From contig NC_047030.1 in assembly GCF_902652985.1 (NCBI RefSeq), forward strand, positions 21,824,001-21,888,000: DNA of 64,000 bases. Reading direction: 5' to 3'. This DNA comes from Pecten maximus. Taxonomy: Eukaryota. A program made the position numbers and the translations under genes. Below the pieces are notes generated by a model that made no database searches, was not told where the DNA came from, and saw only the letters and a program-made list of their open reading frames with translations. Positions 2,261-57,688 of this stretch are shown here, piece by piece (position 1 is the stretch's first letter; each line of letters opens with the position of its first letter).

Positions 2261-5200
2261 ATGACGCATTTTGGTGAGTACATTAAGTTTCAATTTTATA
2301 ATTAATGAATTTAATCATCAGTCATTGATATTGTCATTCGATCGGACGGCAACGCGAAAAACGTAAATTATTGAAATAAAAATGTATATCAGGTATAAGC
2401 AAAATAGCAAAGGATAGCTATTACATATCAAATTATTCAGTAAATGTTTTAGTTGTTAGAATTTTTGATTGATTTGTTTCAGTAATATATGCGATGTTGT
2501 CTTGTAATCCTTGGCATTTGCTCTCGTTTACAAATGCATATTTATATTTTTTTCACATTGATATACACATAAATATTAATTTAAATTCAGCGAATTTTGT
2601 TAAAAACAACAGGATATAATCGTGCGCGAGCAGTTTCATCAGGAGTATTTATACTAATCTCTGGTAGCATTAGTTACGTTGTTGAAAAATCTAGAATGAC
2701 TTCATGCCATGGCCATTTTTATTTGTCGATAATTCCACTTAAAATGTGATTTTGTCACGGGTATTTTTGGTTTTGTCGGTAATATTACCAAATTATCAGA
2801 TCATTATCAAAATTACTACTACGCTAATCAGTACGGCAAGGTTGTGGTGAAAAGGTCGATATTATCAAGGAAGTTAGTCTCCATTCCTGAAAAGACAAAT
2901 ACCTCGGAGAGCAACATCATTTTATCATCATTCGTTTCCAACAAAGGCTCTTGAGTGTCAGGAAACGTTTCCACCAAAGGCTCTCCCTAACAATAAACTA
3001 ATTACAACTTTTATGATATGTATACAATGCTTGTGTAGTGAACTGTGAGGTTGGTTGGGGACTCGCTGATTTACATTCCAGATATTATAGTAAGGCAATG
3101 AAAATAAACACGTCTTTCCTGTTCCAAATCTTTCTGTATTCTAACAATTATAATTTTTTATCACAAGAGATTTACAAAAGGGGGAATAACTCCGATACAT
3201 ACTGGAGTTTTATTATCTCCCTTAAACTGTAATGTGTAATCTCCTCACACCCATATAACTATATACATAACACTTGTTTTTTACTTATTGTATTTTGAAC
3301 ATTGTAATGAGAATTCGTGGCAATAAAATATTTTTACCAAGTAAAAGAAACATAAATTGAATTAAGCTGAAATTACGTATAGGTACATTTTGTAGTTAAA
3401 TGTTTCTTTTGAACACCAGATATAAGTTATTTTTTAGACAGTAGTTACAAAATAAATGTTCTTTTAAAAACAAATTCCTTTGTGTATTCCTCAATGTTTT
3501 GGGGTGACAAATTCAATTCTTTAACATTCATTTTTGGATTTCAGCATTTTAGATAAGAGAATTATCAAATATTAACATTTTTAAATCAGATATTAAAATT
3601 AGAAAGATGATTCCGGGACAAGTTTAAATGAAATATGACAAAAGCGATCAATGGCTTTTGCATCCGTCTATCGCGGAAGCTAAAATTAGTTCAGATGTGG
3701 ACGTACATTTTCCGACTATATTGAGTTTTCTTCATTACTACTATGTATCAATACTTTAGGTCCATAGCATCACTGACCAGTCATAGAAGGATGAAGAAGC
3801 CGTATGATGTAGTTAAGTTAATTTTTGGCTTTATTGAATCTAATTCTCAATTAGTATTCTAATGTATTGGTGTCTTGCGCGTATTGTGTACAGTCCCTAG
3901 TGCCTTGTCTGGGGGCCGCGATAGCTCAGTCGACTAGTGTAAAATTCCTTTTTAATATGTCAATTTTACTTTATTTCATATGGTATTGATTGACTACCTG
4001 ATCCGTACACAACGCACAGCGCGCCAATGGACCATGACGATCTATATTGGTACTTTGGAAATCACTCGGGTCACGTGATATTTTACCAGTATTCTTAGCC
4101 CAGACTATCGCTGTACGTGGCCTAGGTCACGATAAACGGAAACGACCATACTTCTTTGCTCATCAAACCTAGGTAGCTTTACACATGTGTTTGTAGTCAA
4201 AAGATTTACAAATGGTACCTTTTTGAATAGAAAGTATAAATATTATCATCTATATATACATAGTTCATACCGATTAATGACCATATAACTGTATCAAATG
4301 GCTGTTTCGTGGCACAAACTGTGTGGCAGGCAAGTTGATCCCGTCATTTCAGAGAGTTACAGCTCATTAAATTTATACTACCTGCGCGTGACTTTATAGA
4401 ATCTGCGCGTGACTTTATATTACCCGTGAAGAATCAGAATAAAGAAAAAACACAGCTGGGTGATTGGCCAATCAAATGCTTTAGATTTTCTTTTGGAGTA
4501 TGACATATATGGATCTAACATTCATTAGTTATAACATTGTGTGAATGATAATATAAAGTGCCATACAGAAACGTAGTATCTAATACATATAATATAGATT
4601 TTTATCATCTTTCCTTAATATTACTTTAATAAAACAGGCAATAAATCTTATTATAAATTCCTGTTATATGATCGAAGAGACGAATTGTTGTGTTTCTGGT
4701 TATCATAATGAAAATTTGTTGAAATATTTTCCTACGAAAATGGTGTTAATGACGTCTAGGCGTTGGTCCTATTTATAAAACGGAGTTAGAACTCGTGTTG
4801 TATTGTCACGTGGTCGCATCCGAATTTTTTGATAACGAATATAAAATGTTGTTCTTATAAACATTGATGTGGCCTGTTACAGCATCACATGTTTGTCCCT
4901 GTAAACATTGGAGTGGTATGTTACAGCATCACATGTTTGTCCCTGTAAACATTGGAGTGGTATGTTACAGCATCACATGTTTGTTCCTGTAAACATTGGA
5001 GTGGTATGTTACAGCCTCACTTTTTGTCCCTGTAAACATTGGTGTGGCATGTTACAGCATCACATGTTTGTTCCTGTAAACATTGGTGTGGTATGTTACA
5101 GCCTCACTTTTTGTCCCTGTAAACATTGGAGTGGTCTGTTACAGCATCACATGTTTGTCCCTGTAAACATTGGAGTGGTCTGTTACAGCATCACATGTTT

Positions 5201-8200
5201 GTCCCTGTAAACATTGGAGTGGTCTGTTACAGCATCACATGTTTGTCCCTGTAAACATTGGAGTGGTCTGTTACAGCATCACATGTTTGTCCCTGTAAAC
5301 ATTGGAGTGGTATGTTACAGCATCACATGTTTGTCCCTGTAAACATTGGAGTGGTATGTTACAGCATCACATGTTTGTCCCTGTAAACATTGATGTGGCG
5401 TGTTACAGCATCACATGTTTGTCCCTGTAAACATTGATGTGGTGTGTTACAGCATCACATGTTTGTCCCTGTAAACATTGGAGTGGTATGTTACAGCATC
5501 ACATGTTTGTCCCTGTAAACATTGGAGTGGTATGTTACAGCATCACATGTTTGTGTCCCTGTAAACATTGGAGTGGTATGTTACAGCATCACATGTTTGT
5601 CCCTGTAAACATTGATGTGGCGTGTTACAGCATCACATGTTTGTCCCTGTAAACATTGGAGTGGTATGTTACAGCATCACATGTTTGTCCCTGTAAACAT
5701 TGGAGTGGTATGTTACAGCATCACATGTTTGTCCCTGTAAACATTGGAGTGGTATGTTACAGCATCACATGTTTGTCCCTGTAAACATTGGAGTGGTATG
5801 TTACAGCATCACATGTTTGTCCCTGTAAACATTGGAGTGGTATGTTACAGCATCACATGTTTGTCCCTGTAAATATTGGAGTGGTATGTTACAGCATCAC
5901 ATGTTTGTCCCTGTAAATATTGGAGTGGTATGTTACAGCATCACATGTTTGTCCCTGTAAACATTGGAGTGGTATGTTACAGCATCACATGTTTGTCCCT
6001 GTAAACATTGGAGTGGTATGTTACAGCATCACATGTTTGTCCCTGTAAACATTGGAGTGGTATGTTACAGCATCACATGTTTGTCCCTGTAAACATTGAT
6101 GTGGCGTGTTACAGCATCACATGTTTGTCCCTGTAAACATTGGAGTGGTATGTTACAGCATCACATGTTTGTCCCTGTAAACATTGGAGTGGTATGTTAC
6201 AGCATCACATGTTTGTCCCTGTAAACATTGGTGTGGCGTGTTACAGCATCACATGTTTGTCCCTGTAAACATTGGAGTGGTATGTTACAGCATCACATGT
6301 TTGTCCCTGTAAACATTGGAGTGGTATGTTACAGCATCACATGTTTGTCCCTGTAAATATTGGAGTGGTATGTTACAGCATCACATGTTTGTCCCTGTAA
6401 ACATTGGAGTGGTCTGTTACAGCATCACATGTTTGTCCCTGTAAACATTGGAGTGGTATGTTACAGCATCACATGTTTGTCCCTGTAAACATTGGAGTTG
6501 TATGTTACAGCATCACATGTTTGTCCCTGTAAACATTGGAGTGGTATGTTACAGCATCACATGTTTGTCCCTGTAAACATTGGAGTGGTATGTTACAGCA
6601 TCACATGTTTGTCCCTGTAAACATTGGAGTGGTATGTTACAGTATCACATGTTTGTCCCTGTAAACATTGGAGTGGTCTGTTACAGCATCCCATGTTTGT
6701 CCCTGTAAAATTGGTGGTATGTTACAGCCTCACTTTTTGTCCTTGTAAACATTGGAGTGGTCTGTTACAGCATCACATGTTTGTCCCTGTAAACATTGGA
6801 GTGGTCTGTTACAGCATCACATGTTTGTCCCTGTAAACATTGGAGTGGTCTGTTACAGCATCATATGTTTGTCCCTGTAAACATTGGAGTGGTCTGTTAC
6901 AGCATCACATGTTTGTCCCTGTAAACATTGGAGTGGTATGTTACAGCATCACATGTTTGTTCCTGTAAACATTGGTGTGGCATGTTACAGAATCAAATAT
7001 TTGTCCCTGTAAAATTGGTGTGTTATATTACAACCTCACTTTTTTGCCCCTGTAATTATTTATGTTACAGCATTACAGGTAAATCCCTGTTAACATTTGT
7101 TTTACAGCAATACCCCGACATAGTGGTGTCCTTCAGGAACTTTACGACATTCACTGTAATAACATTCGCTCCCTCCACAACGGAAGTGTAACCGATAGTG
7201 AGGCAAACACTGATCTGAAGTTCACGCTTAAGGCTCTCGAGTCCCAATCTATCTCAGGTATGTATTGTGACCAATAACAAATATCTGTCGGAACAGTACA
7301 AATCTAAATTTTGTGCTTTTATCATCAAGGGCCAGAACTATCGGTATATCATTATCTGATTTAGAAATAATATCCATAATAACATTCTTACAAATTCAGA
7401 GATTGAGTAAGTTTTACTACTCTGAAACAATTTTAGAGAGTTATTTACTTTTGATGAAATCTCACAAGATAAATTGTGTAAAAGAGTTTGGGGGTACGTC
7501 TAAGGTATGCTAGCTACTGATTGCATCGGAGTATAACAATATGACAAAAGACAATACAGATTTGTTCCATCTGTTTGATCTGACGCTTTGTACTCTTTCG
7601 ACAGGCGAGACGTCCGAACAGATGAAGACGATGCTGAAGATGAAGCGCACACGACTGAGACAATTGGTGGTGGCTGTGTGTATATACAGTTTGCTACTGA
7701 GTCTGTGTCTGTACCATGTAGTCAGCGTCTATCAGCAGCCACATGTCCTAGAACAGGTAAGGATACACCGACAGGTTTTCTATGCCGTGCATGTCGACAC
7801 ACAATGACTCTTCCCAGCGCAACTAAGCGTGAGTTACAGAGCACTCGCTTAAGTAAAGGTTTGCTGTCCCCAAGAAGGCACAGTGGGTTTCTCTTTTGGT
7901 GTTCTCACGTCGTGCCGCTTGAAATTAAGAAAGCGACATTTTGAATGGGCTGCTTAACGACATTTCGTTACCAGGCAACGTTTGCTCGTATAACTGTTAT
8001 CAAATGAGCATTTTATGACAAACTGTTGCAATGTATATTGCAGAAAAGCAGCAAAATAACACATTTTTTACATTCGCTTCGATTGGATCTGAACCGGAGA
8101 ACCGGCGGATTTCAATGCGGTGAAGAAAAAGGACCGTCGTGATTGGTCAAAAATATTTTAAAACGTTATTTCTAGTTGCTCTTTCTGATATTTCACTGAT

Positions 8201-11200
8201 AAAAAAAACCCAATAAAACATCTTCTGTTCCAGTTTTATTTTTTTTATTTTGCAGAGATGTCATTATTTGGAAGATATATCACTGCTTAGACACGTTTTG
8301 ATGAACATCCAGATGGAACTTCGGGCAACCATTATAAATCAATCCTATCATGAATTCCGTCTGAAGGTCGACCGGGCGATATCCAAACTCGGGCATGATT
8401 TTGAGAATCCATCATTTATTCTAGGAACACTTATCAAAACTCGAGTACGATTTGTTCATGTCCTGTCTGAGATAAGACTTGAGGCGGACACATGGCAAAA
8501 TTTTCCCGGTCTTTGTCCCAAAATATAAATTATTGACGCATTTCATATATGATAATCTGATAGAGGTGGCGCGCCAGAGTCATTTTACAACAGATGTGTC
8601 TATCAAAGGAATTGACAAAGCCTTAGAAGTGTTGACAATGCTTCAGGAAGTTGATATCTACAACAAGTTAGACTGTTCTATAGCGATCAGTAGCAACGAA
8701 ACCAGTCTTCGTAGCACTTACAATAACGCCATAATGCAGGGCATCAACAACATTAGGGCGCACAATATAGTGCTGGGTTTTCGTGGTGTGAAAGTTATAA
8801 CACCACAGGAATGGAATTTTCTGTTTTCACTCGGACAAAACACAAGAATATTTCCAAACAAGGACTTAGTCGACATGCACGAAAACAGTTCTCAAAATTT
8901 TATGACTTGTAAAGAAATAGAGTTTGAGCTGACAAGCATTATTAATAATGTTATGGCGTTGTCAGAAGGTTTGTTTTCTAGTCTGACCAACAGGATAAAC
9001 GAGGAACACAGCGACGCGATTAAGAAAATCGTAATATACACCATGTTATTCCTATCATGCGTTGTACTCTTCGGTATCGTTTGTGTCCTGCACCATTTCA
9101 CAGTGAACAGGTTATTGGCGCTGGGGGTCGTCGAGGACAGACTGAATAAACAATTGATGGAAGAGCAAGATAGAATATCTGTCATTTTGCTGGATGTGGT
9201 ACCCCCGGAGTACATACAATTGGTAATGAATGGAACCGATAAAGTATGCACAAGCGTAAAACGTAAAATACAAGACAAAAACAATAAAAACAGCAATAAA
9301 ATCAGTTTGAAAAGTTCTTTCGAATCTCTGGTCAAAACATTAAAAAAAAGCTCTGTGCAACCTACAATATCAACTATCTCAACCGAAGATGAAAAACACA
9401 CTAAACGGTACGACGGTGTTCCAATCAACGTACCCATTCTCAAGTGTGTCAAGCCTGATGTGACATTCGGGACGCTTGACAGTGCCACGCTGTTTATGTG
9501 TGACTTTATACATCTAAACGACCTGGTGGCCGTATACGAACCTGATCAACTAATCAATCTGGTCACATGTCTCATCCAGATCCTGGAGGAGCGGACCAAG
9601 CTTTACGATGTCCACGTTCTGTGTAAAAACATAAACATGTTCTCCGTCATTTCCGGTAAGTGACTGTATTACTTCCGGTACGTTATTGTGATCTATTTGT
9701 TTTTTCTTCCGGATACTATATAAAATTATAAGCACACACTTTATATATATGTTTTCAAATTCCAATAAATAATTATGTGATAACATGATTTGCGATTAGC
9801 CAATCAATTTGGATATTCCTATAAGTAATCTTTCTCTTGAATGTTTTTCGAGATGTACATGTATGCGACGCACCGGTGTTCAAGATGAAGCGCATGGTTT
9901 GATATGTATGTGGCGTGACAGTGTTCAAGATGTGTCTGGCGAACAGGTGTTCGAGACGAAGCGCATGGTTCAAGATGTATGTGGCGCACCAGTGTTTGAG
10001 GCTCGAGATGTGTGTGGCGCACCAGTGTTTGAGATATATGCCATATACTTGTGCTCGTGGACTGTGTTAGAGATAGGGAATACGTGATTATCATATATTT
10101 GCCTTTTCCTAATTAAAATCTTATTCCAGGAGCACAATCCCAGCATGCACTTCGACATGTATCCGAGATAGCTAATATGGCGCTGGACATCCGGGCTTCG
10201 TGCAGTGATCTGGAGATAGACGCACTTCCGGATTCAAAACTACGTATGCGTATAAGCATACACGTGTGTACGTTCAACCAAATATTTTTCTTATTGTGGT
10301 TGTTAACAATTTGCATATTAACGTCTATTAACAAGATAATGCAGAAAATACGTGATAGCCTTGTCGTCTTTTTGTGTAATTAGTATAAATATAGATAACA
10401 GATGTAGGAGGGTTGATAAAAGTTTTACCGAAACATAAAATACTGCTTTATGAAGTATTTTTATGTAGTCATTAAATCCAAGATGTCAATAGACTGCTGT
10501 TTCTATTTTTAGCCGATTGTTTGTATAAATTGTCGTCACATCCGGAGCCTCGTTTTCACATATACGGAGAACTTGTGGATATGACCAGACAACTACAGAA
10601 GAACTGCACCGGTAAGTATGATGAACATATATGTTTTTGATATAGATACGAGTGTTGATGAGTAATAACCATCAAGGAGGCAACCGGAATCTGACATTTT
10701 TGTATGTTAGTGTACTGTATTTAGTAACTTGTTTCGTCCTTCACCGGAAGTGTTTTTTATGTTTAGTTGGGAGGGATATAATAGGTAAACAGTACTCACG
10801 TGTTTGACGACTCTCTCAAATTATTTAACTATCACAAGCCAAGTTATTTCCCCCATACAAATAACATGTTAACGGGTATCACGAGGGGAGATAACTCTAG
10901 TACCTGTTAAATTTGCATCATCAAAGTAAGATAGTTATCGTGCATGCTTGCATAATCTCTAGGAAGATTACCTCAGCGACAACAAAATGATGAATCAAAG
11001 AAGATTATGTTGTCTCAGTTTACACTAAATCTACTGGACAGTTCCATGTTGGTGACATGACGTCCAAATGGATGCACAGTTTAAAGAAATCCAGGGCAAT
11101 AAACTAAATCTACTGGACAGTTCCATGTTGGTGACACGACGTCCAAATGGATGCACAGATCAAAGAAATCCAGGACAAATATTAATTTCTTTGATAACCA

Positions 11201-14009
11201 AGCAAACTCGGGTCGTATTTCAAACACGAAATGTAATAGTGCAGACTGCGATCACATTAATGGGGTCTGCCGACATAAAGTATTACTTAAATATTAAATC
11301 GTTGTACGAAATTTGAACTTCGATGTCAAAAAAGCATACTTGGTTTGGATTTTTCGGCATAGCCGTATAGTATTCTTTTGGCCCAGGATATGACGCGACA
11401 GGTGGCGTTACTGGTCAAGATGAAGTATGTGATTGGTCAATGTAGCAGTAAATGCGAAATGCAGATTTGCAGTTAAAACGTAACAAAGTTAAAGTCTTTT
11501 CAAATGACACATAATGAAATTATATTCCTGATTCAAATGCAGTCTTATTATCACCAAAAATGATTCAAACTGATTTGTTATCATTGCTGAAACGCATTAG
11601 TTCGTTAATTTGTTTCACCAGCAGTTTTATATTATAACCACCAGCATTAAAACTATGCCGTTTATCTTTTTAAAAGATATTTCTTGTTTTTTTGTCTTTA
11701 TTGTTGTTTTCGTTTTTTGTTTTTAACATGTATTCAAGTTTCCAATTATGTTCCCCATTATTTGTTACACAGCAAACAGAATCCACATTAGCGAGGACGT
11801 TGGAACAATACTGCGACAGGAGCATCAGTACCAAATCGAGCGAAGAGGAATGATGATATGTACGGTAAGAGTCGCACCATACAGGCAGACATTCCGTCAG
11901 TCTCATACAAACATTTTCTTATTTTCGCTATTTCTCTGGAATTAAGTAGTGGATATAGGGGGGGGGGGGGGGGGGGGGGGGGGAGTGATGATGCTTAAAG
12001 TACATGCTCATTAATGGGTCTAGCTTAGCTTGCTTAAGTTTGAACATAATCAATAATAAGCCTGGTTGGGCTTGCAAAAATTTGAACATGGTCATTAATT
12101 ACTGTGCTTGTCAAATTTATTTTCTATCTGGTTATCAATCAATATCTAAGTTGCTCATTGGACGTTCCCTCTGTCTCTTAGAGATCGTATTGAAACTTTA
12201 TGAATATGTTCAGATTGTTTTAACTGATCGAGATATTTAAGATGACGTCATGTTTTATTTAGACAGATAGAGCTCGTTATCAGTATTTCTCCTCATGAGC
12301 TAGTGATGATTTTTACTTGACTTAAAGCCTCTCTGTGTTTTTGCAACATATATATTATGTTAAAATACAAAGATGAGATAAATGATAAAATACATATCCT
12401 AAATGTGAGAATCAAGACCGTAGTTCTTCACAACTGAAATTTAAACTGAGAAACTACCAACTGATTACAAGGAATCTCCAACTCGGTGCTCCACTCTCTA
12501 TATGTAAATGAGCCGCGGATAATATGTCGTGTAGGCATGCGCAAATTAGTTTGTTTTGAAAATGGCGGACTGGCGGCCACAAAAACCACGCACCAGAAGA
12601 CCAAGGTCGATTAGACATACTTGTAGCTGCCATGAAGGAAAAGGAAAGTGTTGGGGAAAACTACAACATCATCTACGGCTTACAGAGTCAATGTTAGTCT
12701 GTTAGACAAAAAAAAATAAGATAGGTTATACGTGAAAAGCCACCATGAAATGGCAGTGGAACTTTTCGGCATTGGATAAACAAACCCATGTTTTCCTGTT
12801 TATCATACGGGGATGTAACTCGATTCACGTTGTATTTCTAGATGTTTATTACATATTATACATGTACTTATTAATTTCTGACGTAACTGATCATATTTGA
12901 AGGTAATATCATACAGATAATGTCATAAGGGATAATGATGTTTAGCTTGATAAAGTTTCATATCTATAAACCAAAACATAGAGAGGCTTAAAGGCACATG
13001 TTCGATGTTGATTCTAGTTATACATGTACGTGCTCCATTTTGAACTCAGATATTCAAGATGACCATCAGCTGATGCTGGGATTTTATGTTTGAATTTTCT
13101 TTCTTCTGCTGATCAAGAAGTACTGAAATGATGTATATGATAAAGAGACTTGTGAAGAAAATATCTGTTTATGCCGGAATAAGGGTTATTCCGGCATATT
13201 TATTCCGGCATTATTATCTTTTATATAGATGGTTCTTCTTGTGACATTTTGCTATACTAGACAATAGGTTGAACAGCATCTTTTCTTTAAAGCATCAATT
13301 TTAAAAACATCCTACTTACTTTGTAACAAGCTTATGTTAGTTAAAGATGAAAAAAAACCTCAAACTTAAAAAAAAAAACTATAATCAAAGTAAGAATGAA
13401 AAAAAAATAGAATAAAAATTAATTAATTGATAAAATAAAATGAATAAATACAAATAATATAAAATAAATAAAGAAAGAAAGAAATTAATTAATTAATATA
13501 AATAAAATAAAATCATCAGTTGTAGACGCCAAGATCCGCCCCCTCTTCTCTCCTAACATGAAATTACATGTACATTGCTTCACAAGTAAAATGTGTGTTC
13601 TCAAATTGGCAAATCTTATTCACTTCAACGACAGGATATAGTTTTATCATACATCGCCGCGCCCTTCATACAGCATTGTTTTGATAAGTTTTTCTGGCAG
13701 AAGGTAGGTACTTGTAATTCTTCTAATATGTATTTTTTCCTCTCGCAGGATGGTAGGTATTTGTCTACGCAGTGGTTGCTTGGCCGGCGAGTATCTGTAT
13801 GTAACCCCAACCATCACGATTTCCGAGGTAAAAACTCTATGCCCATTCAGCTTGCGGAGAAAGCGATCTACATATTCGACAAGGAGAAGGTCAAATACAT
13901 CTCCCCATACTGGATGACTCCTTCAGGCCAGTTCAACGAGTCAATATCGATGAGTGAATCGTCCTATTCTGATTCTGATGGTAGCTTTAATGATAGTCAA
14001 CACGAATAG
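2261..14009 (+). CDS. Membrane guanylate cyclase-like protein (NIT-GC-like architecture), catalytically degenerate; one internal frameshift
   Basis: Phase-compatible GT-AG exons: 2261-2273 (tentative, ATG ACG CAT TTT G|gtgagt), 7108-7257, 7605-7756 (TM1 LVVAVCIYSLLLSLCLYHVV), 8256-9655 (NIT-like helical region, TM2 IVIYTMLFLSCVVLFGIVCVL, signalling helix LMEEQDRISVILLDVVPP, cyclase start DSATLFMCD), 10130-10267 (RHVSEIANMALDI...LRMRISIH), 10513-10611 (PRFHIYGELVD), 11773-11864 (NRIHISED...IERRG), 13749-14009 (TQWLLG). Motif order matches class III nucleotide cyclases. A +1 shift is needed between 8476 and 8525. Confidence 0.85.
4855..7075. repeat. 44-bp tandem repeat (AAACATTGGAGTGGTATGTTACAGCATCACATGTTTGTCCCTGT), ~50 copies, upstream of the 7108 exon (intron 1 if the 2261 exon is real)
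   Basis: Period 44 (4861 to 4905); very homogeneous core. Confidence 0.97.
11351..11690. mobile_element. Dispersed non-autonomous repeat, copy 1 (second copy at ~32753-33130)
   Basis: TTTTCGGCATAGCCGTAT...GTTACTGGTCAAGATGAAGTATGTGATTGGTCAATGTAGC...AAAACTATGCCGTTTATCTTTTT is shared in direct orientation. Confidence 0.8.
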
Positions 14010-30600: not shown

Positions 30601-33600
30601 TTTCATAATAGTATCTAGATATATATTTTTTTCTGTTTAATGCTATTTGATGATCGCTACAATTAAATAGATAATGGAATTCGTCTCTTATTTCATTCAG
30701 GTTACACAGACTACAGATTCTATTTTCTCTTGGGATGTTATTCCATCTTCCGTATTCGATTGGTAATTTAATGTTACAAGTTCGAAATTTACAATAAGAA
30801 TTGAGAAAAATGTTGATATTGTTCCTATAAGGTATCACACTTATACCACGGAACCCAGACGTAATCAGATTGAATTCCACAACATTTGATAGATCGATAA
30901 AATTACCAAACGAGCGCCGTAAAAATGGCATTTCCCGGATAACTGCATTGCTGTCAAACAGGAATAATGCTTGAAAAGTGTTTAAGAAAGGTCAAAAATC
31001 CATTTCAACACGTTTAATGCCGACTTTTTACGAGAAACCCTTAAATTGCGCATTTACTACAAAATTTTCTATGTTGCCCATGAGGTCACGACTGTATGCA
31101 ATTTATAAGCACCGACTTTGTTGTCTCTGCTTTACAGATGGCTTCATCAAATCTCCTTCGCGAAGAATAAACAACAGTGAAACCAAGGAACGTATACCAC
31201 ATCCGTACTAAAAAGTACACATTGGAATCATATCTGACACGTCACGACACGTCAGGAAGTATGATGGTAACCAACACCAATGTTGTCACTGAGGATATCT
31301 TTCACGCTGGAGGTTTACCTCCAGCAACATATCACACTTAAACATGAGACACATCCCAAAGAATATGTCAAAAATGTAGGGTAACTTTCAAGTCTTCGTC
31401 GACGTTGTCTCATAATATAAAACTTAAACACGGCTACAAAGATTATTCATATCTAAAGGAAACTTTGATATTCCTGGGTTCAGTGGTATAAGTATTTGCT
31501 ACGAATGATACCTTATGGGAACAATATCAACACGATTTCTCACCTCTGGCACATCTTTGGCGCTTCGAAGCCATGCCCCTCCTTCGACGTATAGCCGAGC
31601 CCCCAAATGTGTCGGTGAAAACGGTGTGAAATATAGGCCGCCAGTTAACATCAAAGTTCAAGCCATAGTGGCGAACTAGGCCAAAGGCGACACTTCGTTG
31701 TATGTTTTCAAATATTCAGCGGAGAACAAACAGCTATTGATACGTCAAACATTTTTCTACCTATGTCACCATTCATATACAGGCCAATCCACTCATTTTT
31801 CTATCTATGTCACCATTCATATAAAGGCCAATCCACTCATTTTTCTATCTATGTCACCATACATATAAAGGCCAATCCACTCATTTTTCTATCTATGTCA
31901 CCATTCATATAAAGGCCAATCCACTCATTTTTCTACCTATGTCACCATTCATATACAGGCCAATCCACTCATTTTTCTATCTATGTCACCATACATATAC
32001 AGGCCAATCCACTCATTTTTCTATCTATGTCACCATACATATACAGGCCAATCCACTCATTTTTCTACCTATGTCACCATTCATATACAGGCCAATCCAC
32101 TCATTTATCTACCTATGTCACCATACATATACAGGCCAATCCACTCATTTATCTACCTATGTCACCATTCATATACAGGCCAATCCACTCATTTATCTAT
32201 CTATGTCACCATACATATACAGGCCAATCCACTCATTTTTCTATCTATGTCACCATTCATATAAAGGCCAATCCACTCATTTTTCTACCTATGTCACCAT
32301 TCATATACAGGCCAATCCACTCATTTATCTACCTATGTCACCATACATATACAGGCCAATCCACTCATTTTTCTACCTATGTCATCATTCATATACAGGC
32401 CAATCCACTCATTTTTCTATGTCACCATACATATACAGGCCAATCCACTCATTTTTCTATGTCACCATACATATACAGGCCAATCCACTCATTTTTCTAC
32501 CTATGTCACCATACATATACAGGCCAATCCACTCATTTTTCTACCTATGTCACCATACATATACAGGCCAATCCACACATTTTTCTATCTATGTCACCAT
32601 ACATATACAGGCCAATCCACTCATTTTTCTACCTATGTCACCATTCATATACAGGCCAATCCACTCATTTTTCTATGTCACCATACATATACAGGCCAAT
32701 CCACTCATTTTTCTACCTATGTCACCATACATATACAGGCCAATCCACTCATTTTTCGGCATAGCCGTATCATTTTCTTTGACCACGGATATGACGCGAA
32801 AGGTGCCGTTACTGGTCAAGATGAAGTATGTGATTGGTCAATGTAGCGGTAAATGCAAAATGCAGATATGCAGTTAAAGACGAAACAAAATTAAGCTTGA
32901 ATGCAAGCTGAATAAGTGGATGTATCTATTCAAACGACACATTAATAAAATCATATTCCTGATTCTTTTTATCACCAACAAAGGATTCAAACTGATATAA
33001 TTTTGTTATCCGTGCTGAAACTGCGCATGTATTAATTAGTTCGTTAATTTATTTCACCAGCAGATTTACATTATAACCACTAGCATTAAAACTATGCCGT
33101 TTATCTTTTTTAAAGATATTTCTTGTTTTATACAGCTCTTAGTTTCCAAACATTTTGCAGACACATCTGTAGTGACCATGTCGTTCACATGACCTGACGA
33201 GATCTCGCGTGGTACAAGGCAATCATAATATTAAACCACGTGGTTTCATAACAACTATGTCAGCGAAATGTTTGGACAGTAAGAGTTTAATGACATAATC
33301 AGTGGATTACCCGTTTGGTCAAGTATGAAGAAAAATGATCCGATAGATGAGTGTCTTTCATCCATACGATGAAAATGAAAAGTTTAAAACATACGACGAA
33401 TCTTCCAATTATAAAAAAAAATGAACCGAGGATAACAGCAGGATGTTTACACGTGTGTATTGATGGTCATACAAAGTCAAAGGAATCGTGTCAATACTAA
33501 TTGATGATAATGGAAATCACAGGAATTATGTCAACACGAAATGATAATAATGAAAATCACAGAAATGATGTCAACACCAATTGATAATAATGAAAATTCC

Positions 33601-39458: not shown

Positions 39459-40077
39459 ATAACATGTTTACTTTCTATCTTTAGCTTTATTATTTTATAT
39501 ATCAGCTATGTAAGTAGTGATATGTTATGCTAAATTAATTTATAATTACTAGTTCTGTCATCTCATAGATAATTAAAATCCTGCTGCACTTTTAAATTCA
39601 ATTTAATTCTAATGAAGTCTAACTGCACTGAACCGATTGATATTTTTGTAAAAATGCATTTGATTTATTGTTGTTAATTAAATGAGTTTAATTCTATAAA
39701 ACAACGTTATATTATTGATACCTTTTCATCTCTTCATTTATTGAAAAAAATATAATGTAGTGTGCTTTAGTTCAGTACAGTTATATTTGGTCAAGTAGTA
39801 ATACCGACAGTACAGTCGATAATTAATTCGCCGAAGGCCTATTGTAATAAATTACGAAACATCTAAGGCGGTGTACAGATGGTATATATAAATAGTTAAA
39901 TAAAAGATCTAAAACAAAATTGCTGAGCAAGTTAAAACGATTTGATGACAGCACATGTTTTGTAGTAAATGTTTATATAATATATTGTATTTGATCGCTA
40001 AAATAAATATCTATTAAATGATAATTACATAATAGCATTTTCTGTTACATGTTTTTATTTGTTTCCAGGTTTCAACA

Positions 40078-42111
40078 ATGCCCAAGGCAATTACATGCTG
40101 CTTATGCAGGAAAAGATGTAAAATTAACTTGAGGCGGAAGGTAACAGGAGGACCATTCCTTAAGTATCTTAAGAAAGCTCTGTGTCGTGACATTTGTAAT
40201 GACGATTTCGTTTGTAGTTCTTGTACAGCAAAGTTTTATAAATATGGAAAATCTACACGAACAAGTAATCATCATGTCAGCAATGTTCCAACATCATTTA
40301 GAAGCCCTAAAACTGTGAATCTTCAAATACTGTCTACTCCTAGAACACACAAATATTGTATTGTATGCCAAAAATATGGAAACAACAGATGCCATTTAAT
40401 ATCTATACCTAAAAATGCAAGGACTCAAGCGTTTATTGAACATGGAATTTTTATAGACTCTACAAATAGATGCTGTGCCAGTCATATAAAAGACAAATAT
40501 TTTGATACTGTATCTCTACAACTAATCAGAAGTACTAAGACATCAGACTTATTTTCCAGATCAGACATCACTGATTTACTCCAGAATGTTAGATCATTAA
40601 TGAAAACATCGTTTCATCTCAATTTTGATATACCCTCTGTGTTGTCAGATGCTAATTATTCCGAACTTACCGGACTAAATAAAGATCAATTTGCAGATCT
40701 TGCATCATACCTGGTGTCCGTTCGAAATACTACAGTTAGATCAACGCGCACATGTCTTGGGGTATTGCTTGTTAAACTGAAAACTGGATTGTCCAATGAA
40801 CTGATATCAGTACTTTTCGGATTGAAGAAATCACAAGTTCAAAGGAGTGTACATAGTGCCAGATCTGCATTGATCGACAATTTCGTGAATAAAAATTTAG
40901 GTTTTAACCACATTACCCATGATAACTTCTGTAAAGACCACACGTCGAGTATTGCCAAGGAACTTTTCACTACCAACAATAATCAGGCAGTCGTCGTTCT
41001 AGATGGGACATATATATATATTCAAAAAAGTGGAAACTACAAGTTCCAGCGTAGGTCCTATAGTTTACATAAACATCGACCTCTAGTAAAGCCTATGGTA
41101 ATTGTGGGTACCGATGGTTATATACTTAGTGTTCTAGGACCATATCTAGCAGATGGCAAAAACAATGACGCCGCAATTACAAAACATATGTTTGCCAACA
41201 ACTTACAAAACATTAACCAGTGGTTCAATGATGGTGATATGTGTATCGTTGACCGGGGCTTTCGGGATTCTGTTTCTTTTCTTGAGGAGCACGGTTATCG
41301 CGTTGAAATGCCACCTTACTTGAAAAAGGGAGCAAAGCAACACACAACACAAGACGCCAACTTATCGCGGCTAGTAACAAAGGTTCGCTGGATTGTGGAG
41401 AGTGTTAATGGCCGTATCAAGCAATATCGAATGATGGACAAAGTGGTCCCAAATACATATATCCATTGTATTGGTGATTTTATACAAATTATTTGTAGCA
41501 TCTTGAACAAATACAAAAAGCCTCTTTTGCAACCCACCGCATCCTCTGAGGAAATGGCTCGCAAAATGCTGATCAAATCAAAGGAGGAGAATCGTCTTCT
41601 TACTGAGCTGGAAGAACGTGGTCTTCTAAAAAAAAGATCAACGTATGTCACCATTGACGCCTCTGGAGAAGAACTTGACGACTTCCCAATTCTAACAAGT
41701 GACGATCTCAGAGATATTACCTTTGGTATATATCAAATCAAGCAAGCTTGTTCATACTCGAGAGAGCACATGTCAGATGACGGTGACTATGAGTTACTTG
41801 TTTGTAAGGAGGACACTGGCTTGTTGAAAGTCAGGATCCAAAGTCGGCATTGTAGCGGTGTTTTGCATTCATTATGGATTCGATATGATGTGTTTACTAT
41901 ACTTGGATGGTACTGTACATGTAAGGTCGGGGCTAGAGTGGTGGGTTGTTGTGCCCATATTGCAAGTGTGTTGTGGTACCTAGGTATCATCCGCCACCAA
42001 GACACCATTGAACCTTCTACTAAAGTGTCATCTGTATTAGATGCTGCAGATATGCCGGAAACTGACACCTCAGATAATTCAGATGATAGCGAATCAGTAA
42101 CTGAGGAGTAA
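40078..42111 (+). CDS. DDE transposase (DDE_Tnp_4/IS5-Harbinger-like) with Cys-rich N-terminus, HTH region and C-terminal SWIM zinc finger
   Basis: Intact 677-aa ORF with LDGTY, KNNDA, VDRGF and RWIVES catalytic motifs, ELTGLNKDQF HTH region and CTCKVGARVVGCCAH SWIM motif; splice acceptor TTTCCAG just upstream of the ATG. Confidence 0.93.
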   Translation: MPKAITCCLCRKRCKINLRRKVTGGPFLKYLKKALCRDICNDDFVCSSCTAKFYKYGKSTRTSNHHVSNVPTSFRSPKTVNLQILSTPRTHKYCIVCQKYGNNRCHLISIPKNARTQAFIEHGIFIDSTNRCCASHIKDKYFDTVSLQLIRSTKTSDLFSRSDITDLLQNVRSLMKTSFHLNFDIPSVLSDANYSELTGLNKDQFADLASYLVSVRNTTVRSTRTCLGVLLVKLKTGLSNELISVLFGLKKSQVQRSVHSARSALIDNFVNKNLGFNHITHDNFCKDHTSSIAKELFTTNNNQAVVVLDGTYIYIQKSGNYKFQRRSYSLHKHRPLVKPMVIVGTDGYILSVLGPYLADGKNNDAAITKHMFANNLQNINQWFNDGDMCIVDRGFRDSVSFLEEHGYRVEMPPYLKKGAKQHTTQDANLSRLVTKVRWIVESVNGRIKQYRMMDKVVPNTYIHCIGDFIQIICSILNKYKKPLLQPTASSEEMARKMLIKSKEENRLLTELEERGLLKKRSTYVTIDASGEELDDFPILTSDDLRDITFGIYQIKQACSYSREHMSDDGDYELLVCKEDTGLLKVRIQSRHCSGVLHSLWIRYDVFTILGWYCTCKVGARVVGCCAHIASVLWYLGIIRHQDTIEPSTKVSSVLDAADMPETDTSDNSDDSESVTEE

Positions 42112-42689
42112 ATATTTCATTATTTTAGCAGTACATAGTAATTACATGTATACTAACACATATATATGTGTACCAGATATATGATATTCATAAAGATATG
42201 TCTCTGTATATTCCATCTATTAGATACAATGTTTACTGTTTTATGAAATTTGCATGTACCATGTCTTTAGGATCACACGTCATAGCGAGATGCATAAAGA
42301 AATGGACCTTGCCAAATACCTTACAATGTATTTGTGCCTACTTTTCGGACATCGTGGTCCTAGTCAGAGGGCAATTACAATGAAACTGTATAACACTTTT
42401 ACCACACAATTATTTTGTTCATAATTGTTGCTGTCTTGGTCATATGAATCTTTAAGCCTGGTTTTATATGAAACCTTCTGTACCAGGACTCAGGAGTTAA
42501 TATAAAAGATTGTGTGTATTTTTCATAGAACTGAAGTTTCTTTAAATTGCAAAGATTTGCTTTCACTTGTGTGATTGAAGATTGTTATAATTTTGTCATA
42601 AATCTAGCCTTGGGACAGTAGTTGTGTCCTTTCTCTTGTTACTGTTTATTAACTATATCCATCCTTGTGATTGGTCATTAAACCCAATA

Positions 42690-44380
42690 ATGCTCATAAT
42701 TGTCATTAATCTTATCAATGCTCATGATTGTAATTAATCTTAACAATGCTCATGATTGGTCATGAATCTTAACAATGCTCATGATTGGTCATTACTCTTA
42801 ACAATGCTCATGATTGGTCATTAATCTTAACAATGCTCATGATTGGTCCTTAATCTTAACAATGCTCATGATTGTTATTAATCTTAACAATGCTCATGAT
42901 TGGTCATGAATCTTAACAATGCTCATGATTGGTCATTACCCTTAACAATGCTCATGATTGGTCATTAATCTTTACAATGCTCATGATTGGTCATTAATCT
43001 TAACAATGCTCATGATTGTTATTAATCTTAACAATGCTGATGATTGGTCATGAATCTTAACAATGCTCATGATTGGTCATTAATCTTAACAATGCTCATG
43101 ATTGGTCATTAATCTTAACAATGCTCATGATTGTTATTAATCTTAACAATGCTCATGATTGGTCATGAATCTTAACAATGCTCATGATTGGTCATTACCC
43201 TTAACAATGCTCATGATTGGTCATTAATCTTTACAATGCTCATGATTGGTCATTAATCTTAACAATGCTGATGATTGTTATTAATCTTAACAATGCTGAT
43301 GATTGGTCATGAATCTTAACAATGCTGATGATTGGTCATTACTCTTAACAATGCTCATGATTGGTCATTAATCTTAACAATGCTCATGATTGGTCATTAA
43401 TCTTAACAATGCTCATGATTGGTCATTAATCTTAACAATGCTCATGATTGGTCATTAATCTTAACAATGCTCATGATTGGTCATTACCCTTAACAATGCT
43501 CATGATTGGTCATTAATCTTAACAATGCTCATGATTGGTCCTTAATCTTAACAATGCTCATGATTGTTATTAATCTTAACAATGCTCATGATTGGTCATG
43601 AATCTTAACAATGCTCATGATTGGTCATTACCCTTAACAATGCTCATGATTGGTCATTAATCTTTACAATGCTCATGATTGGTCATTAATCTTAACAATG
43701 CTCATGATTGTTATTAATCTTAACAATGCTGATGATTGGTAATGAATCTTAACAATGCTCATGATTGGTCATTAATCTTAACAATGCTCATGATTGGTCA
43801 TTAATCTTAACAATGCTCATGATTGTTATTAATCTTAACAATGCTCATGATTGGTCATGAATCTTAACAATGCTCATGATTGGTCATTACCCTTAACAAT
43901 GCTCATGATTGGTCATTAATCTTTACAATGCTCATGATTGGTCATTAATCTTAACAATGCTGATGATTGTTATTAATCTTAACAATGCTGATGATTGGTC
44001 ATGAATCTTAACAATGCTGATGATTGGTCATTACTCTTAACAATGCTCATGATTGGTCATTAATCTTAACAATGCTCATGATTGGTCATTAATCTTTACA
44101 ATGCTCATGATTGGTCATTAATCTTAACAATGCTGATGATTGTTATTAATCTTAACAATGCTGATGATTGGTCATGAATCTTAACAATGCTCATGATTGG
44201 TCATGAATCTTAACAATGCTCATGATTGGTCATTAATCTTAACAATGCTCATGATTGGTCATTAATCTTAACAATGCTCATGATTGGTCATTACCCTTAA
44301 CAATGCTCATGATTGGTCATTTATCTTTACAATGCTCATGATTGGTCATTACTCTTAACAATGCTCATGATTATTCATTA
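42690..44380. repeat. 29-bp satellite (CTTAACAATGCTCATGATTGGTCATTAAT) inside the Spy element
   Basis: Period 29 (42739 to 42768); variant pattern repeats at 692 bp. Confidence 0.97.
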
Positions 44381-44739
44381 ATCCTCTTTGCGATTAGTCA
44401 ACAATCATATTCATCTTTTTGACTGCTGATTAATCATTTCCCTCTTTGTGACTGCTTAGTGACTGATTAATCATATACATTTTGTGACTGGTTAGTGATC
44501 ATATTCAGTCTTTTCTATTTGTCATAGCAATACAGTTGAAAAAAACATGTACAGTTCATGTATTTACATTACATCAGCGTGTTGTTGTTACACAATCGTA
44601 AATACTGGAAGCTGATGAAGATATCAAAGTAGTTCGTTTGCAAAGTAGCCAGAACAAACTAAATGATATTTGACGGTAAAGGAGAAGGTAAGGGAAAGGG
44701 CCAGATACATCTACAATTCTGAATGTAAAAGAATTCCGC

Positions 44740-56100: not shown

Positions 56101-57688
56101 ACAGGACAACAACCAACAGCATAAACAGGGGGACATCGAACAGCATCAAAAAGGTAAAATTGAGCAGCATCAAAGGATCAACAATAAACAACATCAACAA
56201 GGCTATTCCGAAGAGCAACCAACTTATACAAATGAAAAGCAAAGAAATGCCGGAGAGTACCGAATGGAAACATCTGCACAGCACAAAGAAGAGAATACCG
56301 AGAAGCGTGTACAATGGAACGCCGCTGGACAAAAACAACAAGAAGGTTCTGAAAAGTACCAACGCGGTAACCTCAAACAGAACCAGCATTATATTGTAGA
56401 TGACGTCGAATCTGAAAGGCAAATCGAGTTATCAAGCAATGTTATGGAAAGAAATGAGTTTGATATTTCTGATGACAACGATATTGACAGTAGTGACAAA
56501 CTTTCAACCGATGCTCCAAGTAAGCTGATTTCAGGAACTGGAGATGGGAAATCACAGGACCGACATCATATCCGTATACCACGGAGTCTTGATGTAAGAA
56601 ATGTCTCTCGAAATGTTAAGAATGCCACAGAATTTGAAAACGCCACGGAAGACATTAGTTATAGCATCTCTACAAATTCAACAAATGTCACAGATTTTGT
56701 GGAAATGGCTACACAGGGTACTATAAAGTTAACGCCCAACAGAGTGGATTTACCAAGTGTTTCGTCGAATGACAACAGTACCCCTTCAAATGACTCTGGT
56801 GTCAACATCTCACAACTGACCCAATCTGTGGCCGCCAACATCTTGGCATTCGAAATAAACGATGAAACAGGTATTGCAGCGAACAAGTCAAACATCGACA
56901 TAGGTGATCTTGGAAATACCATTCTAAGAAACCAGGACACAATGAAAAACATCATAGAGAATATCCTTCCAAATCCTCCGGCATCAAAGATCCTCACCAT
57001 GGAGACTGCTGTGAACGAAGAGCATTTTACTTATATGTATATAGAATATGCTACAAACATATTCTTCACTTGTGAACTGTTTCTGCGTCTCGTTTTCTGT
57101 CCTCGTGCGATAAAATACGTTTTTTCATTTCAAAATGTAATCGACATACTTGTTTTAGCTGCAGTTTATGCCAGGAGTGTAATTTCCTTAATCGAGGAAT
57201 ATCAGAGCGATATCGACATTCTTTTATATCTACAGATGTTGAGAGTTCTCCGTCTCCGTAGACTATTGGACAACGTGACTGCATACAAGGTACTCTGTTA
57301 TTCAATGAAGGTTGGAAAAAATGACGTATTTCTTATTTTGCTATATGTCTTCTTTGGGGTACTGTTCTTTTCCAATTTTATCTATTTTTTTGAACGAAGC
57401 GAAGATTTCCCCAGTATTCCCGAAGCTTGGTGGTGGAGCATGGTTACCATAACAACAGTAGGATACGGAGACATGGTACCTAAAACATTCATTGGTAAGC
57501 TGATCGGATCAGTGTGTGCTCTATCCGGGGTGTTCATGTTCTCTCTGATAATACCTATATTTGTGAATACCTTCTTGTCTGTTTATCAATACGCCGAGGT
57601 ACGTAATCGGAATGATGACATATCTCAAAACAACAATACTGCAATCCAGAAACAGAAGATGGAAAAAGTCAAAGAACAGAGTGTTTAA
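50167..57688 (+). CDS. Voltage-gated potassium channel, Shaw(Kv3)-like but atypical
   Basis: Exons 50167-50209 (tentative), 52444-52925 (T1/BTB domain with exact HX5CX20CC zinc motif) and 55580-57688 (S1, long loop, S2 IEYATNIFFTCELFLRLVFCP, S3 NVIDILV, S4 LRVLRLRRL, pore SIPEAWWWSMVTITTVGYGDMVPKT, S6). Splice phases are compatible. Confidence 0.92.
53830..55360. repeat. 40-bp tandem repeat (AGGTATGAGGTCCGCTAGACACCCGTCCTAACAAGACATT) in Kv intron 2; homogeneous to ~54590, then progressively diverged
   Basis: Direct periodicity of 40. Confidence 0.95.

What the first reader, a model, noticed from the sequence alone, without database searches (positions are those of the whole stretch)
9470..14009. 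Pseudo-cyclase: NIT-GC-like receptor whose cyclase domain has lost nearly all catalytic residues but keeps clean splicing
Seen: the cyclase fold motifs are in order across five open, phase-compatible exons. Only the first metal Asp survives (FMCD). Canonical KVETIGDAY reads VLCKNINMF (GTP-specifying Glu and second Asp lost), PRYCLFGDTVN reads PRFHIYGELVD (specificity Cys lost), and NTASRM reads DMTRQL (transition-state Asn/Arg lost). Known: class III cyclases work as dimers, and NIT-domain GCs occur in marine invertebrates. Inference: a catalytically dead, dominant-negative or scaffolding partner for an active GC, rather than a randomly decaying gene. A ~75-aa Lys/Ser-rich insert also separates the signalling helix from the cyclase domain.
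Basis: partly seen in the sequence, partly recalled or inferred. Interest (0 to 1): 0.7.

Follow-up and report, generated by a model that had tools for sequence, protein, structure and literature searches.

The report
Dead cyclase receptor conserved in scallops
A scallop gene encodes a membrane receptor shaped like the nitrate/nitric-oxide-sensing guanylyl cyclases; its enzyme domain has lost six of eight catalytic residues, yet it is spliced and conserved in three scallop species, so it is likely a non-catalytic partner that would damp the cGMP output of its active relatives.

Summary
The five cyclase exons join into one open frame, and all four introns are spliced in transcript contigs.

It is not decaying. 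Orthologues in two other scallops carry almost the same substitutions at 75-86% cyclase identity. Displayed cyclase SNPs are 9 synonymous to 1 non-synonymous. Three unnamed distant ORFs join the same long-stemmed clade and share the insert.

- The assembly carries a +1 frameshift allele upstream, heterozygous in one of three samples.
- The NIT-fold ectodomain appears to lack both ligand arginines and evolves fast.
- Degeneration recurs: 7 of 11 NIT-type genes in this genome lack at least one catalytic residue, some in complementary half-site patterns.

Inhibition of an active paralogue by heterodimer formation is the likeliest mechanism, but support is only a weak complex score. I found no NIT pseudo-cyclase in print. 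This scan noted bacterial pseudo-cyclases before, on other DNA. Verdict: new variant of a known kind.

The parts
7108..7257 (+). Upstream exon, open in frame with the rest (cytoplasmic N-terminus or 5' leader); start codon not fixed
   Evidence: 3' end joined to 7605 in one RNA contig; 5' end by acceptor consensus only
7605..7756 (+). Exon encoding the first transmembrane helix (about 7667-7723); absent from the public model
   Evidence: Hydropathy 2.31; joint 7257>7605; its 3' end matches the N-terminus of the Ylistrum orthologue. No joint to 8256 was seen; the one contig here runs on past the donor to 7804
8256..9027 (+). Degenerate NIT-fold ectodomain; both ligand-site Arg positions appear replaced in this species
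   Evidence: Atlas on orthologue P0002 residues 1-300: feature score 0.93 to NIT clusters, TM 0.80/0.77 to NIT proteins; hhalign collinear with NIT-GCs, probability 99.6 over the whole protein; no Pfam NIT hit; own NIT profile at most 6.5 bits
8501..8528 (+). +1 frameshift allele (one extra base in a short homopolymer) and the resulting stop at 8526-8528
   Evidence: sample S1 shows both alleles (run X1 3.3 of 7 without the base; run X2 contig with it); contigs of S2 and S3 lack it; the frame is open without it
8622..8750 (+). Highly polymorphic ectodomain stretch: 11 differences, 6 of them non-synonymous, seen as two haplotypes
   Evidence: Two forms in contigs of S1, S2 and S3; codon effects
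9028..9237 (+). Second transmembrane helix (9028-9084), signalling helix and transducer-like element ending ILLDVVPPEYI
   Evidence: Hydropathy 2.68; continuous helix in the model; aligned to the LLYQMVP element of NIT-GCs
9238..9456 (+). 73-aa low-confidence insert between transducer element and cyclase domain, shared by the whole clade (64-87 aa)
   Evidence: pLDDT below 50 over most of it; 29-37% identity among scallops
9457..9655 (+). Pseudo-cyclase N-half: D1 kept (9502-9504), Glu>Cys (9622-9624), Asp2>Asn (9634-9636); clade signature helix
10130..10267 (+). Cyclase exon 2; phosphate-binding Arg kept (10249-10251)
   Evidence: Pfam PF00211 on this exon alone E=0.019
10513..10611 (+). Cyclase exon 3: Cys>His, Asn>Asp, Arg>Gln; dimer arm of unchanged length but altered sequence
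11773..11864 (+). Cyclase exon 4, ending at the lost pyrophosphate Lys (Thr)
13749..14009 (+). Last coding exon: end of the cyclase domain, conserved C-terminal tail, stop TAG; one transcript contig runs on to 14597
   Evidence: tail 54-77% identical among scallops

Best explanation
The gene is a spliced, conserved receptor with NIT-guanylyl-cyclase architecture whose cyclase domain lacks six of eight catalytic residues; it is predicted to be catalytically dead and likely works by pairing with an active NIT-GC paralogue, which would silence that partner's cGMP output. Shown: architecture, splicing, residue loss, conservation in three scallops, synonymous excess among SNPs. Inferred: no activity as a homodimer. 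In a heterodimer one active site would lack the base, ribose and transition-state residues and the other would lack the second metal Asp, so both would be impaired. Untested: whether it binds any paralogue, which one, and in which cells. The fast-evolving ectodomain probably no longer senses nitrate/nitrite/NO in the usual way.
For: Residue census 2/8, 3/8 and 2/8 in Pecten, Ylistrum and Argopecten. PMC6005667 reports that mutating the second Asp abolishes sGC activity. Fold kept: pLDDT mostly 86-97 over the domain; best PDB match GC-A, rmsd 2.1-2.3 A over about 189 columns. Constraint falls on the dead domain: 75-86% identity among scallops against 87-90% for an intact paralogue, while the ectodomain is 45-51% against 80-89%. 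Displayed SNPs: 26 synonymous to 9 non-synonymous overall, 9 to 1 in the cyclase (pN/pS about 0.03). Signalling helix and transducer element are kept. Four NIT-GC genes intact at every scored site exist in the genome as possible partners. Complex with paralogue P0010: weak support, ipSAE 0.47 against best control 0.01; runs agree in at least 88% of contacts; partner pLDDT at least 82. That mark was reached by 51 of 78 solved complexes and 2 of 108 mismatches, but at 0.60 or under by only 5 of the 78 and by all 4 mismatches (of 180) that passed; cyclase dimers are solved, so the pass may reflect likeness. Precedent: NPR-C suppresses NPR-A/B by heterodimerising (PMC10334801 abstract).
Against: No binding or activity data. 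24 of 54 positions near-invariant in intact NIT-GCs are fixed to a different residue in all three scallops, including dimer-arm Gly>Lys391 and Gly>Ser394, which could mean a different partner. The ectodomain and a 73-aa insert differ strongly from active paralogues and may hinder pairing. The kept residues are both alpha-half residues, and P0003 and P0004 keep the second Asp, which fits a half-site subunit. A frameshift allele is present in 1 of 3 sampled individuals, and one low-depth RNA contig shows a 1-base gap at 9342 (may be an error), so the gene tolerates null alleles. Co-expression with any partner is unknown.
Confidence: 0.42

Rival explanations
1. It is a dead cyclase used as a scaffold or conformational switch for a non-cyclase partner, signalling independently of cGMP through a re-specialised cyclase surface, the insert and the conserved C-terminal tail.
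For: Very long stem branch (2.0 changes per column) followed by short scallop branches; 24 constant-but-different positions; the alpha2-helix signature is kept even in ORFs only 22% identical overall; the tail is 54-77% conserved; the ectodomain is remodelled.
Against: No partner identified. Signalling helix and transducer element, which serve cyclase dimers, are retained. The complex with an active paralogue scored weakly positive.
Confidence: 0.27
2. It is an alpha-type half-site subunit, like sGC alpha or one partner of ODR-1/DAF-11, that supplies metal and phosphate ligands to a heterodimer with a paralogue supplying the base and transition-state residues, giving low or Mn-dependent activity.
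For: Of the three alpha-half residues, D1 and the phosphate Arg are kept in 3 of 3 scallops; of the five beta-half residues 0, 1 and 0 are kept. P0003 and P0004 keep both Asps. Other paralogues here show half-site patterns: the L002 gene keeps both Asps but lacks Asn and Arg; the L010 gene lacks the second Asp but keeps Glu, Cys and Asn. Obligate heterodimers are known (PMC5225109).
Against: The second Asp is Asn in 3 of 3 scallops and in P0005, which also has Glu for the first Asp. The equivalent Asp>Ala abolishes sGC activity. The C-terminal halves of P0003-P0005 are not available, so their full site sets are unknown.
Confidence: 0.18
3. The domain has kept or gained another chemistry, such as binding a nucleotide as a sensor or slow cyclisation of another substrate by non-canonical residues.
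For: The replacements are fixed, not random (Cys329, Asn333, His401 and Asp408 in 3 of 3 scallops). Some bacterial class III cyclases work without canonical residues (recalled, no call).
Against: The transition-state Arg position varies freely (Gln/Arg/Glu); only one acidic metal ligand is left.
Confidence: 0.08
4. It is a decaying pseudogene that is still transcribed.
For: Frameshift and early stop in the assembled allele; lower overall identity between scallops (59-66%) than two paralogues; NIT signature almost erased.
Against: The frame is open on other haplotypes in 3 of 3 samples. Long open orthologues exist in two other genera. Strong synonymous excess. Identity differs by domain, from 29-37% in the insert to 73-85% in the cyclase.
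Confidence: 0.05

Closest known systems
NIT-domain guanylate cyclases (Moroz et al. 2020, PMC7400543; Platynereis NIT-GC1/2, bioRxiv 10.1101/2023.08.02.551600)
   Same: TM-NIT-TM-signalling helix-cyclase order with no kinase-homology domain; collinear profile match; cyclase intron positions shared with NIT-GC paralogues of this genome.
   Different: 6 of 8 catalytic residues lost; NIT arginines (R in 32 of 33 and 33 of 33 aligned NIT-GCs) not kept; 64-87-aa insert; NIT-GC1 makes cGMP in response to NO, which this protein is predicted not to do.
NPR-C (NPR3), silent natriuretic-peptide receptor (PMC10334801, abstract)
   Same: Non-catalytic member of a receptor-GC family; inhibits active members by heterodimerising, the role proposed here.
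   Different: NPR-C has no cyclase domain and keeps ligand binding; here the cyclase fold is kept under selection and the ligand site appears lost.
Half-site cyclase subunits: sGC alpha/beta, transmembrane AC C1/C2, C. elegans ODR-1/DAF-11 (PMC6005667, PMC5225109, passages)
   Same: One chain lacks part of the catalytic set; the residues kept here belong to the alpha/C1 half.
   Different: Those subunits keep a complete half and are active with a partner; the scallop protein lacks the second metal Asp, so neither half is complete.
Degenerate cyclase of algal Cop5/Vop5 rhodopsins (PMC7693036, passages)
   Same: Receptor-linked class III domain lacking metal, substrate and transition-state residues; a regulatory role was proposed.
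   Different: Unrelated receptor module and lineage; independent origin.

Membership tests
Class III nucleotide cyclase fold (PF00211) | Profile match and fold | tested here: met
   Pfam 65.5 bits against cut-off 21.9, E=6e-18; Foldseek best hit GC-A, E=1.6e-18, rmsd 2.3 A
Active guanylyl cyclase | Two metal-binding Asp | tested here: not met
   D1 kept, D2 is Asn in 3 of 3 scallops
Active guanylyl cyclase | Glu/Cys guanine-specificity pair | tested here: not met
   Cys and His in 3 of 3 scallops; not the Lys/Asp pair of adenylyl cyclases either
Active guanylyl cyclase | Ribose Asn, transition-state Arg, pyrophosphate Lys | tested here: not met
   Asp; Gln/Arg/Glu; Thr
Active guanylyl cyclase | Measured cGMP synthesis | not testable with these tools
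   Needs an assay
NIT-GC | Two TM helices flanking the ectodomain, then signalling helix and cyclase, no kinase-homology domain | tested here: met
   TM helices at about 7667-7723 and 9028-9084; collinear with NIT-GC profile. The splice from the TM1 exon to the NIT exon is inferred, not seen in RNA
NIT-GC | NIT fold in the ectodomain | tested here: met
   Atlas structure TM 0.80 and 0.77, features 0.93 to NIT clusters, on orthologue P0002; both sides are predicted models and the atlas marks the aligned scores as under its naming bar
NIT-GC | Pfam NIT (PF08376) above cut-off | tested here: not met
   0 of 6 clade proteins pass; best E=0.2 for P0003; the window locus is not among 10 NIT matches in the genome
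NIT-GC | Two conserved NIT arginines (proposed ligand site) | tested here: not met
   Second Arg aligns to Asn. First Arg position is Leu in Pecten, Argopecten and P0003 and Arg in Ylistrum, placed by eye. The alignment here is weak
NIT-GC | Cyclase domain groups with NIT-GCs in a tree | tested here: inconclusive
   Clade is solid (100/100) but its place is not: support 56/0 next to one NIT-GC subfamily, and grouping with three paralogues that gave no NIT match is not rejected, p-AU 0.23
Alpha-type half-site subunit | Complete alpha half (two Asp and phosphate Arg) | tested here: not met
   2 of 3 in scallops; both Asps present in P0003 and P0004, whose Arg site is not covered
Dominant-negative or decoy receptor | Binds an active cyclase and lowers its output | tested here: inconclusive
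   Weak complex score 0.47 against best control 0.01, possibly by likeness to solved dimers; output not testable

The most novel reading that the evidence does not exclude
Molluscan NIT-GCs form a combinatorial receptor system of active homodimers, complementary half-site subunits and fully dead subunits. This old lineage is its dedicated brake: a pseudo-receptor whose NIT fold has been retooled, under rapid and polymorphic change, for a ligand other than nitrate/nitrite/NO, and which gates cGMP synthesis of its partners through a frozen pseudo-cyclase.
Probability: 0.15. Interest if true: 0.72.

Novelty: new variant of a known kind. Interest (0 to 1): 0.46.

Why it matters
NIT-GCs are a recently described route from NO/nitrite to cGMP in invertebrates, and only NIT-GC1 was assayed in the paper I read. 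If most members in a scallop are half-dead or dead (7 of 11 here lack at least one catalytic residue), gene counts overstate the number of enzymes and the family may be regulated by who pairs with whom. This lineage offers a clean natural test of whether a cyclase domain can be kept purely as an inhibitor or scaffold, plus a segregating null allele for genetics. The public model is also misleading: it is named 'retinal guanylyl cyclase 2-like' and is cut short by the frameshift allele.

Tried and rejected
Assembly error as the cause of the frameshift: rejected, because contigs of two runs of sample S1 carry the extra base.

Recent pseudogene: rejected.

Switch to adenylyl cyclase: rejected, no Lys/Asp pair.

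Second copy in the genome: the protein search gave 1 match of 7 candidates scored.

Wider orthologue searches gave only the three scallops (3 of 289 candidates; 3 of 7154). One search also missed P0003-P0007, which were in its own query, so the absence of mussel, oyster or Mizuhopecten orthologues is no evidence of loss. The 1.84-billion search used only the large exon and gave 5 hits.

Placing the clade in the GC tree failed.

A NIT profile could not align the ectodomain residue by residue (at most 6.5 bits).

No run on record as RNA holds the gene; the four runs laid are guessed RNA. Positions 8256-8745 had no cover in them, so the frameshift region was not seen in transcripts.

Interspecies dN/dS could not be computed: no orthologue DNA.

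The Leishmania RAC-B precedent (inactive, inhibitory) is recalled; the passages read did not confirm it, so it is not used.

A candidate first coding exon ending near 2274 fits in phase but has no support.

Literature searches for a NIT pseudo-cyclase or scallop NIT-GC study found none. Most subscription papers are not in the library, and the bioRxiv supplements with the Platynereis NIT-GC alignment were not seen; they may contain members of this clade.
Full report
1. OBSERVATION. The five cyclase exons (...-9655, 10130-10267, 10513-10611, 11773-11864, 13749-14009, + strand) have GT/AG ends and join into one open frame. From its Met onward this is the public model XP_033763919 of Pecten maximus (P0001, 535 aa). 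The window lies on contig C16 of G000, and the large exon had one match in the genome. In contigs of four runs guessed to be RNA, all from one study, all 4 of 4 cyclase introns are skipped at the predicted ends, and an upstream joint 7257>7605 is seen once. Spliced joints show transcription; they do not give tissue or level.

The domain is a class III cyclase: Pfam PF00211 E=6e-18, best solved relative GC-A by sequence (E=5e-17) and by fold (rmsd 2.1-2.3 A over about 189 columns; model pLDDT mostly 86-97 over the domain). Against the eight catalytic sites tabulated in PMC6005667 (passages and Table 1 read) it keeps two: the first metal Asp and the phosphate-binding Arg. Glu>Cys, Asp2>Asn, Cys>His, Asn>Asp, Arg>Gln and Lys>Thr are lost. 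The insert is 73 aa.

2. An exon at 7605-7756 encodes a first TM helix and the large exon a second. The ectodomain between them has no Pfam NIT hit (0 of 6 clade proteins) and scores at most 6.5 bits against a profile of 33 NIT-GCs. On the Ylistrum orthologue the atlas gives NIT clusters by features (0.93) and by predicted structure (TM 0.80 and 0.77), and hhalign aligns the clade collinearly with NIT-GCs (probability 99.6, driven mostly by the cyclase). Two arginines proposed as the NIT ligand site (PMC7400543, passages) are present in 32 of 33 and 33 of 33 NIT-GC rows. Here the second aligns to Asn and the first, placed by eye, is Leu in Pecten, Argopecten and P0003 but Arg in Ylistrum. This alignment is weak, so the loss is likely rather than shown.

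The assembled allele is broken by one extra base at about 8501, with a stop at 8526-8528. DNA contigs show both alleles in sample S1 (run X1: 3.3 of 7 depth without the base; the X2 contig has it), while contigs of S2 and S3 show only the in-frame form. Contigs drop rare variants, so this is presence, not frequency. It is a real segregating null allele, and it explains the truncated public model. Without the base the frame is open for 762 codons from the 7108 exon.

3. MAINTAINED, NOT DECAYING. Orthologues in Ylistrum balloti (P0002) and Argopecten irradians (P0008) keep 3 of 8 and 2 of 8 sites with the same replacements, except that the transition-state Arg position is Gln, Arg or Glu. Cyclase identity among the three is 75-86%, against 87-90% for an intact paralogue set and 82-90% for a second degenerate set. 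The ectodomain is 45-51% against 80-91%, and the insert 29-37%.

Of the coding SNPs displayed are synonymous and 9 non-synonymous; in the cyclase 9 and 1 (pN/pS about 0.03). One search hid 66 further rows and showed the best supported, and transition bias is not modelled, so the ratio is approximate; the direction is clear. Six of the nine non-synonymous changes sit in one ectodomain stretch (8663-8750).

Three unnamed genomic ORFs (P0003-P0005, 22-34% identical) end at the same intron, carry a 65-87-aa insert and share the helix signature before the beta2 strand. All six form one clade (100/100) on a stem of about 2 changes per column with short scallop tips (44 rows, 186 columns, 6 near-duplicate rows left out). 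P0003-P0005 fill under half the columns, and their species are unknown. Of 54 positions near-invariant in 16 intact NIT-GCs, the three scallops keep 17, fix a different residue at 24 and vary at 13. This is the pattern of a burst of change followed by renewed constraint. The place of the clade among GCs is unresolved. Its link to NIT-GCs rests on architecture and on introns: the four cyclase intron positions match those of the L004 gene, and the single exon from NIT start to the beta3 strand is shared with the L004, L005 and L006 genes.

4. FAMILY CONTEXT. The genome has 10 Pfam NIT matches, 8 on C16 (a lower bound). With this gene that makes 11. Four are intact at every site scored (L004, L011, L007, L009), four lack one to three sites (L003, L008, L002, L010), and three lack four or more (L006, L005, this gene) (several were pieced from tblastn hits and lack the last site). 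L002 keeps the metal half but lacks Asn and Arg; L010 lacks the second Asp but keeps Glu, Cys and Asn. Oyster and Gigantopelta NIT-GCs show separate losses. The finding is therefore the extreme case of a recurring trend, not a one-off.

5. MECHANISM. Class III sites form at the dimer interface: one chain gives two Asps and an Arg, the other gives Glu, Cys, Asn, Arg and Lys. A homodimer of this protein has neither set complete (inferred dead). Paired with an intact paralogue, one site would lack all five residues of the second set and the other would lack the second Asp, whose mutation abolishes sGC activity. Signalling helix and transducer element are kept. I therefore put a heterodimer brake first (0.42). 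NPR-C is the precedent (PMC10334801, abstract).

Direct support is thin. A complex of the isolated domains with paralogue P0010, folded without alignments, scored 0.47 against a best control of 0.01, with at least 88% contact agreement and partner pLDDT at least 82: weak support. The mark was reached by 51 of 78 solved complexes and 2 of 108 mismatches, but scores of 0.60 or under were given by only 5 of the 78 and by all 4 passing mismatches of 180. On eukaryotes it was reached by 39 of 65 solved pairs without a like complex and 2 of 126 unrelated pairs; close relatives were untested. Cyclase dimers are solved, so the pass may be likeness.

Rivals: a scaffold for another partner (0.27), favoured by the remodelled dimer arm and conserved tail; an alpha-type half-site subunit (0.18), favoured by which residues survive and by the second Asp in P0003 and P0004 (ODR-1/DAF-11 precedent, PMC5225109 passages); another chemistry (0.08); decay (0.05).

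6. COMPARISON AND NOVELTY. It works like neither an active NIT-GC (NIT-GC1 makes cGMP with an NO donor and needs its NIT domain; bioRxiv 10.1101/2023.08.02.551600, passages and section 16) nor a complete half-site subunit. It is best filed as a NIT-GC-derived pseudo-cyclase: architecture and fold tests are met, while catalytic, Pfam NIT and arginine tests are not. Degenerate cyclases are known elsewhere (Cop5/Vop5, PMC7693036 passages), and two unchecked notes of this scan describe bacterial ones; none matched this sequence or genome. Seven literature searches found no dead NIT-GC or scallop NIT-GC study, within a library lacking most subscription papers. The passages read from the two NIT-GC papers do not mention inactive members, and their supplements were not seen. 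PMC1435932 and PMC7719234 (passages) added nothing decisive.

7. VERDICT. Real, transcribed, conserved pseudoenzyme; new variant of a known kind. A cyclase specialist would find it worth testing but not startling, since pseudoenzymes arise in most expanded signalling families. Interest 0.46.

Noticed in passing
G000:C16 (L002-L006, L009-L011), C2 (L008), C18 (L007): Ten NIT-domain loci, eight on the window's contig. By catalytic sites scored, L004 and L011 genes are 8/8, L007 and L009 7/7, L003 and L008 6/7, L002 5/7, L010 4/7, L006 4/8 and L005 0/6. L002 and L010 look like complementary half-site subunits.
   Followed up: partly
L006 gene (G000:C16 about 22.27 Mb; P0009, P0012, P0013): A second pseudo-cyclase lineage: 3-5 of 8 sites, both NIT arginine motifs present, 93-95% identical between scallops over the region searched. 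It could be a ligand-binding but silent receptor.
   Followed up: partly
P0028 (Magallana gigas), P0082 (Gigantopelta aegis), P0057, P0068: Other molluscan NIT-GCs with separate catalytic losses (3/8, 2/8, 6/8, 6/8), so degeneration recurs across Mollusca.
   Followed up: partly
window 8622-8750: Two divergent ectodomain haplotypes (11 differences in about 130 bases, 6 non-synonymous) appear together in contigs of all three DNA samples; possible balancing selection.
   Followed up: partly
window 52401-57688 (+): Voltage-gated K+ channel gene (BTB_2 and Ion_trans) with about 450 extra low-complexity residues between a first hydrophobic segment and the rest of the channel domain, apparently a giant S1-S2 loop.
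   Followed up: no
window 40036-42111 (+): Uninterrupted 691-codon ORF with DDE_Tnp_4 and HTH_Tnp_4 domains: a PIF/Harbinger-type transposase (family name recalled).
   Followed up: no
window 11350-11690: High-copy repeat inside the third cyclase intron, with summed contig depth in the thousands.
   Followed up: no
window 4858-7055, 1-1141, 31750-32757, 42668-44383, 46246-49167, 53830-54787, 59885-61091: Long minisatellite arrays (periods 14-44); a 44-bp array of 50 copies lies directly upstream of the 7108 exon.
   Followed up: no
XP_033763919 (P0001): The public model starts at a Met after the frameshift, lacks the first TM helix and part of the ectodomain, and is named 'retinal guanylyl cyclase 2-like'.
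   Followed up: yes
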